Source: Promethearchaeota archaeon (GTDB taxonomy: Archaea; Asgardarchaeota; Lokiarchaeia; Sigyniarchaeales; SOKP01). From it: 64,000 nt of DNA. Below the pieces are notes generated by a model that was not told where the DNA came from, searched no databases, and saw only the letters and a list, made by a program, of their open reading frames with translations. Position numbers and translations under genes: made by a program. Below are positions 23,722 to 51,061 of the stretch, piece by piece. Position 1 is the first letter of the stretch. Every line of letters begins with the position of its first letter. The stretch covers positions 1 through 64,000 of the forward strand of contig JAHLWS010000078.1 in assembly GCA_019057795.1 (NCBI GenBank). Direction: 5' to 3'.

Positions 23722-24315
23722 TCATATTAATAAGCTCAAGTTGTATTTGATTAATCGAATCGTGCTACTTGCTAAGTAAGATCGATTTCCAAGACTCAGA
23801 TTTGTTAGTTTTAACTCCTTTAATTCTTTTGAATTTATTAATTCACCGCTTTGGTCTCCAACTATAAATAACAAATTCCTTTTTGGACTCATGTCCATAA
23901 ATATTTTGCTAAAATGTGCTCCACTTTCATTTAATATAAATACTTGATATTTTTTCTTAATAAATTTTTTAATTGCTTCAAAAATATCTAAATTTGAACA
24001 CTTTATTGAATCCAATGGATTTACGGTATATTTCTTATTTCCTTTCTTAATGAAATCTACAAAATAATCCGTCAACATTATTTCGTTTTTAGGAAAAGAG
24101 ACATTATTAAATGTATTGGAATCAAAAACAAATGTTCCATACTTATCTAGAAAAGCCCAAATCTGAATATTTTTTTCGAGTTTATTATCGCTTGTAAGTG
24201 CGGATAAAACACATCGTGACACAACATCTAATCTTCCAGAAGTTCCTTGAATATCTTTAATATAATAGTTACTAATGTCAACCGTGGATGATTTTATGAA
24301 AAAAATTAAAGTCAT
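23722..24315 (-). CDS. trmY: tRNA (pseudouridine54-N1)-methyltransferase
   Basis: GTSGRLDVVSRC, FIVGDQ and LSLGNRSYLAS SPOUT motifs. Confidence 0.85.
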   Translation of the reverse strand: MTLIFFIKSSTVDISNYYIKDIQGTSGRLDVVSRCVLSALTSDNKLEKNIQIWAFLDKYGTFVFDSNTFNNVSFPKNEIMLTDYFVDFIKKGNKKYTVNPLDSIKCSNLDIFEAIKKFIKKKYQVFILNESGAHFSKIFMDMSPKRNLLFIVGDQSGELINSKELKELKLTNLSLGNRSYLASSTIRLIKYNLSLLI

Positions 24316-30131: not shown

Positions 30132-30188
30132 ATTAATTTTCCCATTTAAATAGAAAGATTTTTTTAGCTCGTTTTTTATATAATTATT

Positions 30189-30496
30189 GGGAAAATGATG
30201 ATGGAACATTGGCATATTCGAGGACACGTATGATAACCCGTGATTACGTGTGCAAACTTATGCAGACATCCTGAGTTTATTAATCAACAATTTACTGCAT
30301 CAAAAATGGGCTCTTAATCAAGCTAAGGTAATACCGTGCGATGAGATTCGAGTCAGCACCCAGCGTGCAGATATGATTATGCCCCAAAAGGCATAGAAAT
30401 TACCGCCTAGCACGAGAGAACTTATTTGATTTTATGGAATAACCATTAGATGATAAATGTGTGTTAGTGTTTTAGGCAACAATATATGCTGATTTT
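30189..30496 (+). ncRNA. Candidate ~300-nt structured RNA closed by box C/D
   Basis: AAA-ATGATGA (30195-30201) ... CTGA-TTTT (30489-30496); raised GC; several nested helices; no ORF in the track; T-rich TATA-like element ~30 nt upstream. Confidence 0.65.
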
Positions 30497-31658: not shown

Positions 31659-32624
31659 TTATTTTTTCTTTATACTAATTCCGAGATCTAAATTTTCAAT
31701 AAGTTCGGAGAAGCGATTTCGAACCGTCACCTCTGTGACTTGACTAACTTTGGCTATTCTCCTTTGAGTTCTTCGTTCTTTAGTAAGAATTGATGCGGTA
31801 TAAATTGCTGCGGCGCATAGTCCCGTTGGACCGCGACCAGAGGTTAGCCCCCTTAATTCAGCCATTTGAATAATTTTCTTTGCTGTTTTTTGGCAATCTG
31901 TAGATAGTTCTAATTCAGATATAAATCGAGTAAGAAAATCTAATGCTTTAGTTGGGTTTAAATTTAGTCCTAATTCCCTTGAGATAAATCTAAAGGAACG
32001 TCCTATTTCTTTTTTATCAACACGAGCAACTTCTGCTATCTCGTTTAATGTGCGTGGTACTTTAAACCTTCTACAAGCGGCATATAGACTTGCAGCAGCA
32101 ACGCCTTCAATGCTTCTCCCTCGAATAAGATGAGCTCTAACAGCGTCTCTATAAATTTTTGCAGAACATTCTCGAAGATTTTTCTGAAGATCAAGGTTTG
32201 AAGCCATGCGATCTAATTCACTTAAGGCAAAAGTCAAGTTTCTTTCAGTTGCATCTGATACTCTAATCCTACTTTGCCATTTTCTCAAGCGATATATTTG
32301 ACCTCTAATCTTAGCAGAGATTTCTTTACCAAAGATATCCTTATTCTTCCAATCAATCATCGTGGAGAGCCCTTTGTCGTGGATCATATAAGTCATTGGA
32401 GCTCCTGTCCTAGTTCTTTTCTTTTTTTGATCTGCATCAAAAGCACGCCATTCAGGCCCCTGATCTATATGTTTTTCTGAGTGTACTAAACCACATTCTT
32501 GACAAACTAATGAACCTCTATTTTCGTCAAATAGAATATTTTTACCGCATTCGCTACAATTAGTATGACTTTTTCCAAAATCAATTTCTTCGGATGCATT
32601 GCTTTGGTTCCAACTTGAAATAAT
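31659..32624 (-). CDS. tfb: Transcription initiation factor IIB (full length needs an ATT start at 32624 or 32621)
   Basis: In-frame upstream Zn ribbon CSECG...LVCQECG and B-reader GPEWRAF; cyclin repeats [15 protein letters not shown]. Confidence 0.95.
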
Positions 32625-32668
32625 TTACACCTTTTTAGATATTTTTTTTTAAAAACTAATATAAAATA

Positions 32669-32917
32669 CTAATGTAATTTAGCGTAGATAGTATCATTTG
32701 GATTAAATTTTTTGTTAGGTAAAATATTTATAGAAACAAAGGGCAATTTTATAGGACCAAAAATTTCTTTAATATACCCAATTTCTTCATATTGTTCAGT
32801 AAAAACAGGTTTATGAAAAATTGCTTCGAGGTTTTTATCCCACTTTTTGGCTCTAAAGATATGATGTTTCTTAGAATTCCCGAGAAAAAATAGATTTAGC
32901 TTAATATATTTTTGCAA
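32669..32917 (-). CDS. gar1: H/ACA RNP component Gar1/Naf1
   Basis: IGYIKEIFGPIKLPFVSI motif; gar1-tfb order is conserved in archaea. Confidence 0.85.
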   Translation of the reverse strand: MQKYIKLNLFFLGNSKKHHIFRAKKWDKNLEAIFHKPVFTEQYEEIGYIKEIFGPIKLPFVSINILPNKKFNPNDTIYAKLH

Positions 32918-33182: not shown

Positions 33183-34286
33183 TTATATGAAATTTTTCTG
33201 CAACTGATATTTTATCAGGCAACCACATGAGTAGCTATCGTCTTTTTTTATTAAATGATTAATATTTTGAGACAATACAAACTCTTTGAGAGAGTTTATC
33301 ATAAATTCGTTGCAATCTCTTTTTAAACAATTGTGAATTCCTCTTTTCGAGCCAGCTCCAGAGGGAGACGATATAATCCTAACTGAATCCAAGATAGTCT
33401 TGTCTTTACAAGCTTTAATTATACATTTAAATAAAGAATAAAACCAAGGTGGCCGATATCTGTTCTGATACCATAAATATTCCACTAGCGAATTTTTTTG
33501 AATGTTGAGAGGGTTGATAGAAATAGTATTAACCTTTAATTCAGCTAATTTTTGAATAGAACTAGCACAATCATCTATTGCTGTTTGTTCGTTTAGGAAT
33601 GGTGGTTTAAACAATAAATATACTCTCACACCTACATTATTTTCCTTACAAATTTGGACTGCCTTTAAAAAATCTTCGAATTTTAGGCCTTTATTTACGT
33701 ATGTATTTCTAATATAATCATTTACCGTTTCCAAACCTATTGCTACTTCGATGTACTTATTTTCTAATGTGTTTTTCATTTTTTTAAGCTTCTCACGAGT
33801 TATATAATCAACTCGAGATTCTACAACGATTTCTTTTATTTTAGGGACTTCAGCGATTTTTTTATATATATGTTCACGAACATCAGCAGATATTTCGTCG
33901 TCATCGAAAAAACTTCCAGAATTAAAAATCTTGAGGATAAAATCATCTTTATCAATAGAAATTTCCTTGATTTTTTTTTGGAAGGCATAATCAAATTGGT
34001 TGATAATGTGAACAGGGTCAATTTCTTCAATGGTAGAATCTTGAATATATCCACACATGGAACACCCTCCAGTTTCTCCTAATGCCCAACTACATCCCTT
34101 TGTTCTTAATATAGTCGTGAATTCCTTTCCTTTTTCTTTGAGCAAACGATCTTCTTTTATCCAAAAACTTACTGGTTTATCTAATCGTTCGTCTTCAAAT
34201 TTTGACTTTTTTCTAATAGCTTTAGATCTAAGTGCTTTGATTTTTTCAACGAGGAAATTATTTTCATTTAATTTTTCCGTAGACAT
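33183..34286 (-). CDS. Archaeosine biosynthesis radical SAM protein RaSEA
   Basis: LRTKGCSW...GGCSMCGY, KIFNSGSF, YRPPW, RGIHNC; adjacent to arcS. Confidence 0.9.
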   Translation of the reverse strand: MSTEKLNENNFLVEKIKALRSKAIRKKSKFEDERLDKPVSFWIKEDRLLKEKGKEFTTILRTKGCSWALGETGGCSMCGYIQDSTIEEIDPVHIINQFDYAFQKKIKEISIDKDDFILKIFNSGSFFDDDEISADVREHIYKKIAEVPKIKEIVVESRVDYITREKLKKMKNTLENKYIEVAIGLETVNDYIRNTYVNKGLKFEDFLKAVQICKENNVGVRVYLLFKPPFLNEQTAIDDCASSIQKLAELKVNTISINPLNIQKNSLVEYLWYQNRYRPPWFYSLFKCIIKACKDKTILDSVRIISSPSGAGSKRGIHNCLKRDCNEFMINSLKEFVLSQNINHLIKKDDSYSCGCLIKYQLQKNFI

Positions 34287-36354
34287 TTGCAATTTTACCT
34301 GTTTTTGAATTCTTAATATAATTTGAACCAACTTCTAGGTTCCCTAATCCAATTAAACTCTTTTTATCTTTGTCGAAAATAAGCGTAAAATCTTTTGGAA
34401 CGAGATTTGGACTATAACTTACAATCCCAGGACGAAATAAGGTGTTACCCTTAATTATTTGTCCATCAAAAACTATAAAATTCGTATTTTCATTTAAAGG
34501 TAATAATCTATTCGCTCCTGAAAGATTTAATTCAATTTGTCCCGTTTTAAAATTGAATTTTCCAAGATACTCATTATTTATCAAGTCAAATATTTCTATT
34601 TGGTGTCTTCTTTCATTTTTTCTAGTCCTAATTCCATTAAAACATATTTTTTCTCCAGCCCCTGTTCCAAATTGATAATCCAATATTTTAATAAATTTAC
34701 GAGTCCAACTCTTTGAGAAATTTTTATTTTTTGGAATAGGTTTTAGTGGTTTAAACGAATCTTTTAGGTCAATAATACTGTTTTCTAAAGATTTTAAGGA
34801 TTCAATGGTAGTTAGATTGTTTTTAATTCCCGTGAAGTAAAATTTATTCTTTAGTATTAATCGAGCGTTATCTATAATTTTTAAGTATCCGGGTTCTTTT
34901 AAATAACATATAATAGGTATGTCCTTATCATATTTCTCTAGTAGTTTAATTAACATATTTGAAGCAATTGATATTTCTTCATTATCCCAATCCCCAGTTA
35001 CTGAAATGTCATATGAATTTACGGGGTATATATTTTCAAGTTGTCTAGGAATGGCTCCTAAGGGAGAAGTTAAAATTATTTCTTGAAAATCAGGAAAATC
35101 ACGAAATTTTCTAATTATGCTGTAAAATTTCTTGTGAGATTTCGACTCGGAGTACGGTTTTTTTGCCGAGCAAGGAAGTATGATAATCAATTTTGTCCAT
35201 GATTCAGGCGTAAAACTTTTCAATAATCTCTCCCGAAATTCTTGGAAATCTGGTCTATAATATGAAGATGGACCAAAACATTTAATGATCTTGTTCGCTT
35301 GAGTTATCGGAGTTTCAAGTTTCATCGCGTTAAAGTACTGTTTATCTAAGACTTTCAAAGTAGATATTATGTTCATGTCGTCAAATGAGGATTTTTCGAC
35401 GAAACCTCGAAAATCCTCCATTCGCAAATACAACTTTATTTTATTCATGTATGTATAAGCGGATATAATATTATGAAGAGTTAATTGTTCTATTTTTTCA
35501 GAAGAATATTTGTTTTCTAGGATATATTTTAATTTCCTTTTGCAAATAGAACACGAGCAGGGTAAATATTTTAATTTATAAATGGGAAGTAAATGTTCTA
35601 TAGTATCGTAGAAATTTTCAGAAGATAAATATAATAGATAGGAACAATCAATTAAATCTACTCCTAAATAGACTAAAATTGGATAAAATTTCGGAATAAT
35701 TCTACCTGAAGCCATTAAGACTAAATTATTGTCGAGCTCTTGTTTAATTTGAATAATTATATTTAAAATATTTCTATATTTACTAAATACATCAAATAGA
35801 TCGACTAAATTTAATATTCTCACATTACTGTTATCCTTAATTAAAGGAAGATATAGATCAAATAATTCGGGATACTCAAAGATCTTAATAGATAAACCAA
35901 AATCTAAATTTCGATATTGATTTAAGATTTGATTGGCGTTGGTTATAAAATGTATAATTTCGTTTTTAGCGAAATCCTTATTTATGGTCGTAGTAGGGAT
36001 ATTAAACGGAATTAAAGGTACAATATTATCCTCTGAAAATATATCAATATTATTAACTAAAATTTCTTTAAATCTTTCCATTGAACCATTGTGCTTATAA
36101 ATAAAGCCAGTATGTTTAAACTTTTCTCGTAAAAACCCAATTTTCAAATAGAATTCTTTTAAGATCAAAAATACCTCGTGGTCTTCAAATTCCTCAAGAA
36201 AACTTATATGGTTTATTAAACTTTTCTTCATCGGAATGAGGATATTAGGTGTCGATATAAACCTTTTAGATTCTTTTGAACAAATTATTCTTCCTACTCT
36301 AGAAAATCCTATTCCTTTAGTTATTAATTCAAAAAAATAATTCATGTTCTTCAA
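34264..36354 (-). CDS. arcS: Archaeosine synthase subunit alpha (TGT-like, DUF5591, PUA)
   Basis: LGVDLID, LPCSAKKPYSESKSH, TSPLGAIPRQLE, YDISVTGDW, LDYQFG, PUA tail. Confidence 0.88.
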   Translation of the reverse strand: MKNMNYFFELITKGIGFSRVGRIICSKESKRFISTPNILIPMKKSLINHISFLEEFEDHEVFLILKEFYLKIGFLREKFKHTGFIYKHNGSMERFKEILVNNIDIFSEDNIVPLIPFNIPTTTINKDFAKNEIIHFITNANQILNQYRNLDFGLSIKIFEYPELFDLYLPLIKDNSNVRILNLVDLFDVFSKYRNILNIIIQIKQELDNNLVLMASGRIIPKFYPILVYLGVDLIDCSYLLYLSSENFYDTIEHLLPIYKLKYLPCSCSICKRKLKYILENKYSSEKIEQLTLHNIISAYTYMNKIKLYLRMEDFRGFVEKSSFDDMNIISTLKVLDKQYFNAMKLETPITQANKIIKCFGPSSYYRPDFQEFRERLLKSFTPESWTKLIIILPCSAKKPYSESKSHKKFYSIIRKFRDFPDFQEIILTSPLGAIPRQLENIYPVNSYDISVTGDWDNEEISIASNMLIKLLEKYDKDIPIICYLKEPGYLKIIDNARLILKNKFYFTGIKNNLTTIESLKSLENSIIDLKDSFKPLKPIPKNKNFSKSWTRKFIKILDYQFGTGAGEKICFNGIRTRKNERRHQIEIFDLINNEYLGKFNFKTGQIELNLSGANRLLPLNENTNFIVFDGQIIKGNTLFRPGIVSYSPNLVPKDFTLIFDKDKKSLIGLGNLEVGSNYIKNSKTGKIANVYGKIK

Positions 36355-50989: not shown

Positions 50990-51061
50990 GCGCTCTTAGT
51001 ATAGTGGTTAGAATCTCGGGTTTCCAACCCGAGGACCCGGGTTCAATTCCCGGAGGGCGCA
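50990..51061 (+). tRNA. tRNA-Gly(TCC), no intron, CCA not encoded
   Basis: GCGCTCT/GGGCGC acceptor, TCGGG-TTTCCAA-CCCGA anticodon arm, GGTTCAATTCC T arm. Confidence 0.97.

What the first reader, a model, noticed from the sequence alone, without database searches (positions are those of the whole stretch)
30189..30496. Unannotated ~300-nt structured host RNA capped by a box C/D kink-turn (U3/long-snoRNA-like architecture)
Seen: a GC-enriched intergenic island that begins AAA-ATGATGA and ends CTGA-TTTT, i.e. box C, box D and a terminal stem. Helices include GCATAT/ATATGC near the ends, CACGTA/TACGTG, ATGCAG/CTGCAT around an internal CTGA, and a nested arm ATCAAA..TGGG/CTTATTTGAT, CTCT/AGAG, GCTA/TAGC, GGTAAT/ATTACC with GTGC/GCAC and TATGCC/GGCATA branches. 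Known: archaeal C/D guides are usually ~50-70 nt, while long C/D-capped RNAs such as U3 are eukaryotic. It lacks the SRP helix-8 and RNase P P4 signatures. GGTAATACCG and ATTACCGC echo the 16S 530-loop sequence GCGGUAAUAC, possibly by chance. Inference: an Asgard long C/D RNP RNA relevant to the origin of eukaryotic snoRNAs.
Basis: partly seen in the sequence, partly recalled or inferred. Interest (0 to 1): 0.78.

Follow-up and report, generated by a model that had tools for sequence, protein, structure and literature searches.

The report
Three-hairpin H/ACA pseudouridine guide RNA
The gap holds a real, widely conserved RNA gene of about 300 bases, but it is not a U3-like box C/D RNA: it is best read as the Asgard-archaeal version of a known three-hairpin guide RNA that tells an enzyme which three uridines in the core of the large ribosomal RNA to turn into pseudouridine, here with an extra closing helix around each hairpin.

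Summary
A single-copy RNA gene at about 30189-30490 (+) is real. It is found in 114 of 126 family genomes and across the phylum, behind a conserved TATA-like box. The C/D cap is not supported: the terminal CUGA is kept in 17 of 49 homologues, and the 5' 'box C' forms a kink-turn with the internal CUGA at 30271. Covariation supports three archaeal H/ACA motifs (lower stem, pocket, upper stem, K-loop or K-turn, ACA/AUA box): 92% of cells paired, 38 of 59 pairs compensated. Against the genome's own 23S rRNA (E. coli numbering), hairpin 1 fits U2496 (best of 1069 uridines in 46/48 homologues), hairpin 3 fits U1917 (29/47), and hairpin 2 most likely U2586 (rival: A-loop U2554). These sites match, or for helix 69 lie two bases from, those of Pab40/Pf7/Afu4 (Rfam HgcG). 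HgcG does not hit this copy but hits, below cut-off, the same family in other Asgard genomes. Cbf5, Nop10, Gar1 and L7Ae-family genes are present. Each hairpin with its ACA box is closed by an extra helix, the first with a kink-turn; I found this undescribed. Expression and activity were not tested. The scan found this family before in other genomes.

The parts
30159..30167 (+). TATA-like T-tract about 28 nt upstream of the GGGA 5' end (putative own promoter)
   Evidence: Same motif at -27 to -30 in 28 of 30 genus homologues; function inferred
30189..30490 (+). Whole RNA gene, three H/ACA modules (ends inferred from conservation)
30193..30278 (+). Basal kink-turn closing module 1: 30193-30196 pairs 30275-30278, 3-nt bulge 30197-30199, tandem G.A at 30200-30201 with 30273-30274, GGA 30203-30205 pairs UCC 30269-30271
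   Evidence: 95-99% paired with compensatory changes (helices 1-3); 5' GA in 40/40, 3' GA in 36/40; the next pair varies, U.U in 17/40
30212..30268 (+). H/ACA motif 1: lower stem 30212-30216/30259-30263, pocket strands 30218-30223 and 30252-30255, upper stem 30224-30230/30245-30251, K-loop 30231-30244, ACA box 30266-30268; predicted target 23S U2496
   Evidence: 14 nt from pocket to ACA
30281..30379 (+). Module 2 closing helix 30281-30285/30375-30379
   Evidence: 99% paired, 4 of 5 pairs with changes on both sides (helix 6)
30295..30373 (+). H/ACA motif 2: lower stem 30295-30299/30366-30370, 5' guide about 30305-30311, 3' guide 30358-30364, K-turn at about 30320-30323/30338-30344, AUA box 30371-30373 (ACA in most homologues); predicted target 23S U2586, rival U2554
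   Evidence: ACCC lies exactly 13 nt before the box in 42/42 homologues that have it
30391..30489 (+). Module 3 closing helix 30391-30395/30485-30489
   Evidence: 91% paired, all 5 pairs with changes on both sides (helix 11); present in 32/40, both arms lost together in 8/40
30405..30481 (+). H/ACA motif 3: lower stem 30405-30413/30467-30477, guides 30414-30419 and 30463-30469, K-turn 30425-30429/30450-30457, ACA box 30479-30481; predicted target 23S U1917 (possibly also U1915)
32669..32917 (-). gar1 gene (H/ACA RNP protein), 2.2 kb from the RNA, just upstream of the TFB gene
   Evidence: Pfam PF04410, E 1e-7, over cut-off; whether the closeness matters was not tested

Best explanation
An independently transcribed, three-motif box H/ACA guide RNA, the Asgard counterpart of Pab40/Pf7/Afu4 (HgcG). 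Each hairpin binds L7Ae at its apical K-loop or K-turn and Cbf5-Nop10-Gar1 at its lower stem and ACA box. The two pocket strands pair with 23S rRNA on both sides of a uridine held 14 nt from the box, and Cbf5 isomerises it: U2496 (helix 89), U2586 (peptidyl transferase centre) and U1917 (helix 69). An extra helix joins the strand 5' of each hairpin to the strand 3' of its ACA box; in module 1 it carries a kink-turn that probably binds a fourth L7Ae. These closing helices most likely insulate the folding of the modules and protect the ends of an AU-rich RNA. Shown: conservation, structure by covariation, boxes, spacing, complementarity, presence of protein genes. Inferred: transcription, protein binding, catalysis, and the role of the closing helices.
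For: Structure: 92.1% of cells paired, 38/59 pairs changed on both sides, 0/500 shuffles, slid controls 31-41%. An ACA/AUA box follows each hairpin. With the ruler fixed at 14-15 nt, U2496 ranks first of 1069 uridines in 46/48 homologues, U1917 in 29/47 (top five in 43), and U2586 first in the window and top five in 35/47. Motif 1 has the same 10-pair stem to the G.A pairs and the same pocket letters as the HgcG consensus. Pab40 motif 1 guides P. abyssi 2588 and motif 3 guides 2016; motif 2 of Afu4/Pf7 is expected to guide the position equal to P. abyssi 2678 (PMC2377435). In E. coli numbers 2016 = 1915 and the Haloarcula site 2621 = 2586; the Haloferax homologue of Pf7 stem III is proposed to guide both 1915 and 1917 (PMC2584109). 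The offset of 92 makes 2588 = 2496. HgcG hits 13 other genomes of the phylum at E 4e-13 to 4e-3 and my model built from this element hits most of the same stretches, best E 2e-13. Cbf5, Nop10, Gar1 and two L7Ae-family genes are in the genome.
Against: HgcG gives no match in this genome and no Asgard match reaches the gathering score, so homology rests on a chain through intermediates. The structure was derived from the sequences it was scored on, which favours it in both controls. Target sites are nearly invariant in the rRNAs, so no guide-target compensatory change could be shown. Motif 2 is ambiguous: U2586 ranks first in only 14/47, with LSU 1162 (12) and U2554 (10) close. Motif 3 needs a three-base unpaired UNN, which is functional but non-canonical (PMC2377435). 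The target ranking used my own simple energy score.
Confidence: 0.9

Rival explanations
1. Same RNA class, but motif 2 guides the A-loop uridine U2554, alone or as well as U2586, or holds helix 92 open as a chaperone.
For: The 5' guide matches 7 bases of helix 92 perfectly in this genome, and a conserved CAG fits the other side. U2554 ranks first in 10/47 and in the top five in 27/47. Afu4 motif 2 was first assigned to A. fulgidus 2601, equal to P. abyssi 2647, which the offset of 92 places in the A-loop.
Against: The CAG lies mostly 16-19 nt from the box and its distance varies, whereas ACCC is fixed at 13 nt in 42/42. The U/C variation in the 5' guide is tolerated opposite G2592 but not opposite the A of helix 92. 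CAG is missing in more distant Asgard copies while ACCC stays.
Confidence: 0.25
2. A composite C/D-H/ACA RNA (scaRNA-like): the basal kink-turn of module 1 is a working box C/D that recruits Nop5-fibrillarin, as well as the H/ACA activity.
For: In this copy the motif reads AUGAUGA/CUGA and brackets an H/ACA hairpin; it is conserved in many homologues. Pab21 is co-transcribed with a C/D RNA.
Against: The D-like strand is UCCUGA in only 26/49 and the U.U pair of true C/D motifs is kept in 17/40. The 15 nt before each D-like box match rRNA by at most 7-8 bases and are taken up by the ACA box and stems. Some Asgard copies lack the motif (L123, L125, L131).
Confidence: 0.05
3. One reading: a long box C/D-capped, U3-like RNA acting in pre-rRNA processing.
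For: The window copy does begin with a C-like and end with a D-like motif; the exact flanked pair occurs once in the genome.
Against: Terminal CUGA in 17/49; terminal stem 68% paired and its arms are each used by better-supported local helices; plain RUGAUGA...CUGA at 280-320 nt occurs 114 times in this genome; no complementarity to the 16S 5' end, the helix-2 region or rRNA flanks beyond shuffles.
Confidence: 0.02

Closest known systems
Pab40 / Pf7 / Pho40 / Afu4, three-motif archaeal box H/ACA sRNA (Rfam HgcG, RF00064; PMC2377435)
   Same: Three H/ACA motifs in the same order; K-loop on motif 1 and a K-turn-type motif on motif 3; same pocket words (CGAGG/GC.A, ACCC, GUUA); target regions helix 89, PTC U2586 and helix 69.
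   Different: AU-rich and too diverged to match RF00064 in this genome. Each motif is closed by an extra helix, the first with a kink-turn, absent from the Rfam consensus structure. Motif 3 fits U1917 at 14 nt rather than U1915.
Haloferax volcanii H/ACA hairpins HP1 and HP2 (homologues of Pf7 stems II and III; PMC2584109)
   Same: Proposed to guide U2586 and U1915/U1917 by alternative folds, as motifs 2 and 3 here.
   Different: [quoted passage not shown]
Eukaryotic U3 snoRNA and long box C/D RNAs
   Same: Length and the presence of kink-turn motifs bound by L7Ae-family proteins.
   Different: No conserved terminal C/D pair, no B/C pair, no 5' domain pairing with small-subunit rRNA or spacer.
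Eukaryotic H/ACA snoRNAs for the same sites (U19/snR191 for 1915/1917; snR46 for yeast 2865, from memory)
   Same: Same chemistry, and target sites modified in eukaryotes.
   Different: Two hairpins with an H box and no K-turn; direct descent was not tested.

Membership tests
Archaeal box H/ACA guide RNA | Hairpin with lower stem, internal-loop pocket and upper stem | tested here: met
   Three such hairpins with compensatory changes
Archaeal box H/ACA guide RNA | ANA (mostly ACA) box 3' of each hairpin | tested here: met
   first and last A of boxes 1 and 2 invariant across 18 Asgard copies
Archaeal box H/ACA guide RNA | K-turn or K-loop above the pocket | tested here: met
   UGA invariant on the 3' side of all three hairpins; motif 2 has A.A for one G.A in this copy
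Archaeal box H/ACA guide RNA | Bipartite complementarity to an rRNA uridine 14-15 nt from the box | tested here: met
   Motif 1 clear (46/48 rank first), motif 3 good (29/47), motif 2 weaker
Archaeal box H/ACA guide RNA | Cbf5, Nop10, Gar1 and L7Ae encoded | tested here: met
Archaeal box H/ACA guide RNA | Binds Cbf5 and directs pseudouridine formation | not testable with these tools
   needs RIP, pseudouridine mapping or reconstitution
HgcG / Pab40 (RF00064) | Score at or above the Rfam gathering threshold (77 bits) | tested here: not met
   No match in this genome; best Asgard match 51.9 bits
HgcG / Pab40 (RF00064) | Three motifs with the same order, pocket words and target regions | tested here: met
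Box C/D guide RNA | Conserved terminal box C and box D forming one kink-turn | tested here: not met
   Terminal CUGA 17/49; box C pairs with the internal motif
Box C/D guide RNA | 10-21 nt antisense element upstream of D or D' | tested here: not met
   At most 7-8 nt against own 16S/23S; tRNA targets not scanned
U3 snoRNA | 5' domain complementary to small-subunit rRNA 5' end and 5' spacer | tested here: not met
   Longest matches no better than shuffles; no Rfam U3 match
Archaeal RNase P RNA / SRP RNA | Match to RF00373 / RF01857 | tested here: not met
   Both families match other contigs of this genome

The most novel reading that the evidence does not exclude
The closing helices and basal kink-turn are a functional Asgard-specific architecture in which each ACA box sits inside a junction, and the first module recruits box C/D proteins or a further L7Ae that changes assembly or activity, making this a structural intermediate between archaeal guides and eukaryotic composite C/D-H/ACA RNAs.
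Probability: 0.08. Interest if true: 0.7.

Novelty: new variant of a known kind. Interest (0 to 1): 0.3.

Why it matters
My literature searches found no description of Asgard H/ACA guide RNAs, and Rfam misses this one. It gives three concrete, testable pseudouridine predictions in the catalytic core of the ribosome of eukaryotes' closest prokaryotic relatives, at sites also modified in eukaryotes. It extends the Pab40/Afu4 lineage from Euryarchaeota to Asgard archaea. The closing helices and basal kink-turn are a modest structural novelty. It does not provide an archaeal U3.

Tried and rejected
RNase P/MRP-like reading: the 3' end resembled CR-V, but a canonical RNase P lies on contig C56. SRP: on C38. 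Minus strand: folds no better, and the K-turn and ACA signatures are on the plus strand. A structure-blind pocket scan was swamped by A/U and G.U matches and was uninformative. My first assignment of motif 2 to the A-loop was demoted after the ruler test. A 12-nt match to 16S 1321-1332 is kept whole in only 4/40 homologues and is taken as chance. Guide-target covariation could not be tested because the rRNA sites are almost invariant; part of that script picked wrong A-loop and helix 69 stretches and those rows were not used. A pattern scan for Thermococcales Pab40 found none (one unnamed archaeon scored 71.6 bits with HgcG), so P. abyssi numbers were converted through the papers. The rRNA family search over relatives failed and was replaced by a DNA search.

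Full report
Observation. The stretch alone is unremarkable: GC 0.415, folding z-score -0.70, no Rfam match at gathering level or of any weight at E up to 10. Comparison makes it real. It is single copy, conserved with sharp borders in 29/36 genus genomes, and found by a profile in 114/126 family genomes and in other orders. A T-rich TATA-like motif lies 27-30 nt before the GGGA start in 28/30 genus copies. RNase P and SRP RNAs lie elsewhere in the genome.

The C/D cap fails. The terminal CUGA is kept in 17/49 homologues and the exact box C in 18/49. The 5' C-like motif instead forms a standard kink-turn with the internal motif at 30269-30278: both flanking helices are 95-99% paired with compensatory changes, the tandem G.A is kept, and the next pair is free to vary. 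No D-adjacent antisense element exceeds 8 nt, and complementarity to the 16S 5' end and to rRNA flanks is at shuffle level.

What is there. The alignments show three modules, each with a lower stem, an internal loop with near-invariant strands, an upper stem topped by a K-loop or K-turn, and an ACA/AUA triplet. That is the definition of an archaeal H/ACA motif (PMC2377435; PMC7991803). On 40 sequences the structure has 92.1% of cells paired and 38 of 59 pairs changed on both sides; no shuffle reaches it and slid versions give 31-41%. The structure was read from these same sequences, so the controls lean its way. Modules folded singly give broadly the same helices.

Targets. Both rRNAs are assembled in this genome. 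With the 3' guide fixed 14-15 nt before the box and all 1069 uridines ranked by a simple stacking score, motif 1 picks U2496 in 46/48 homologues and motif 3 picks U1917 in 29/47. For motif 3 the target has three unpaired bases, a form shown to work in P. abyssi; a two-base slide would address U1915 at 16 nt, which is outside the 14-15 rule. Motif 2 is less sharp. U2586 ranks first in the window and in 14/47, and U2554 in 10/47. The ACCC that pairs 5' of U2586 is exactly 13 nt from the box in 42/42 copies, while the CAG that would address the A-loop drifts, mostly from 16 to 19 nt, so U2586 is preferred. The rRNA sites are almost invariant, so no compensatory guide-target change could be shown.

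Relation to known RNAs. Pab40, Pf7, Pho40 and Afu4 have three motifs; motif 1 guides P. abyssi 2588, motif 3 guides 2016, and motif 2 of Afu4/Pf7 is expected at the position equal to 2678. PMC2584109 equates 2016 with E. coli 1915 and the Haloarcula site for stem II with 2586, and proposes that the Haloferax stem III homologue guides both 1915 and 1917. The resulting offset of 92 puts 2588 at 2496, a site conserved in eukaryotic rRNA. Rfam HgcG does not hit this genome but hits 13 other genomes of the phylum below cut-off; its consensus carries the same pocket words, and my model hits most of those same stretches. An 18-sequence alignment across the phylum keeps the pocket, UGA and box letters invariant. 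The family is also in complete genomes of the sister family. Orthology is therefore likely but rests on intermediates. Cbf5, Nop10 and two L7Ae-family genes are in the genome, and gar1 is 2.2 kb away.

What differs. Each hairpin with its box is closed by an extra helix joining the strand before the hairpin to the strand after the box. Helices 2 and 3 are 99% and 91% paired with compensatory changes, and both arms of the third are lost together in 8/40 copies, so it is real but dispensable. The first includes the kink-turn. The HgcG consensus structure has none of these and a literature search found no description. I infer a folding and end-protection role; a link to box C/D proteins is possible but unsupported.

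Verdict. A real RNA, correctly spotted but misclassified: an Asgard variant of the three-motif Pab40/HgcG H/ACA guide (confidence 0.9 for the class; about 0.9, 0.65 and 0.75 for targets U2496, U2586 and U1917). Earlier notes of this scan reach the same class in other genomes; my reading was fixed before I opened them and they are not counted as evidence. Interest 0.3.

Noticed in passing
window 31659-32917 (-): gar1 directly upstream of a TFB gene, 2.2 kb from the guide RNA; the roadblock-like gene and TFB flank the RNA in most genus copies but not in the distant Asgard loci examined.
   Followed up: partly
window 33183-36354 (-) and 23722-24315 (-): Further RNA-modification genes nearby: a radical SAM protein with a TGT/DUF5591/PUA protein (archaeosine synthesis-like) and a PF04013 RNA methyltransferase (TrmY-like).
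   Followed up: no
L026:880-1030 (-) and L062:1900-2030 (+): Degenerate second copy of hairpin 3 a few hundred bases downstream of the RNA in two genus genomes, G029 and G093.
   Followed up: partly
window 30333-30344: 12-nt perfect antisense match to own 16S rRNA 1321-1332; whole in only 4/40 homologues, taken as chance.
   Followed up: yes
G000:C38:38134-38446 (-), L040: The genome's SRP RNA scores only 54 bits, under the Rfam cut-off of 96.5, so standard annotation would miss it too.
   Followed up: no
L133:1456-1780 (+), L129, L134: Some Asgard copies appear to have only two of the three hairpins (L133 lacks motif 2; L129 and L134 have a different first hairpin before motif 3).
   Followed up: no
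L041, 23S position 2804: The A-loop has A at the position of E. coli U2555 in most relatives and U in G025.
   Followed up: no
window 50990-51061 (+): A tRNA gene, the only Rfam match over cut-off in the window.
   Followed up: no
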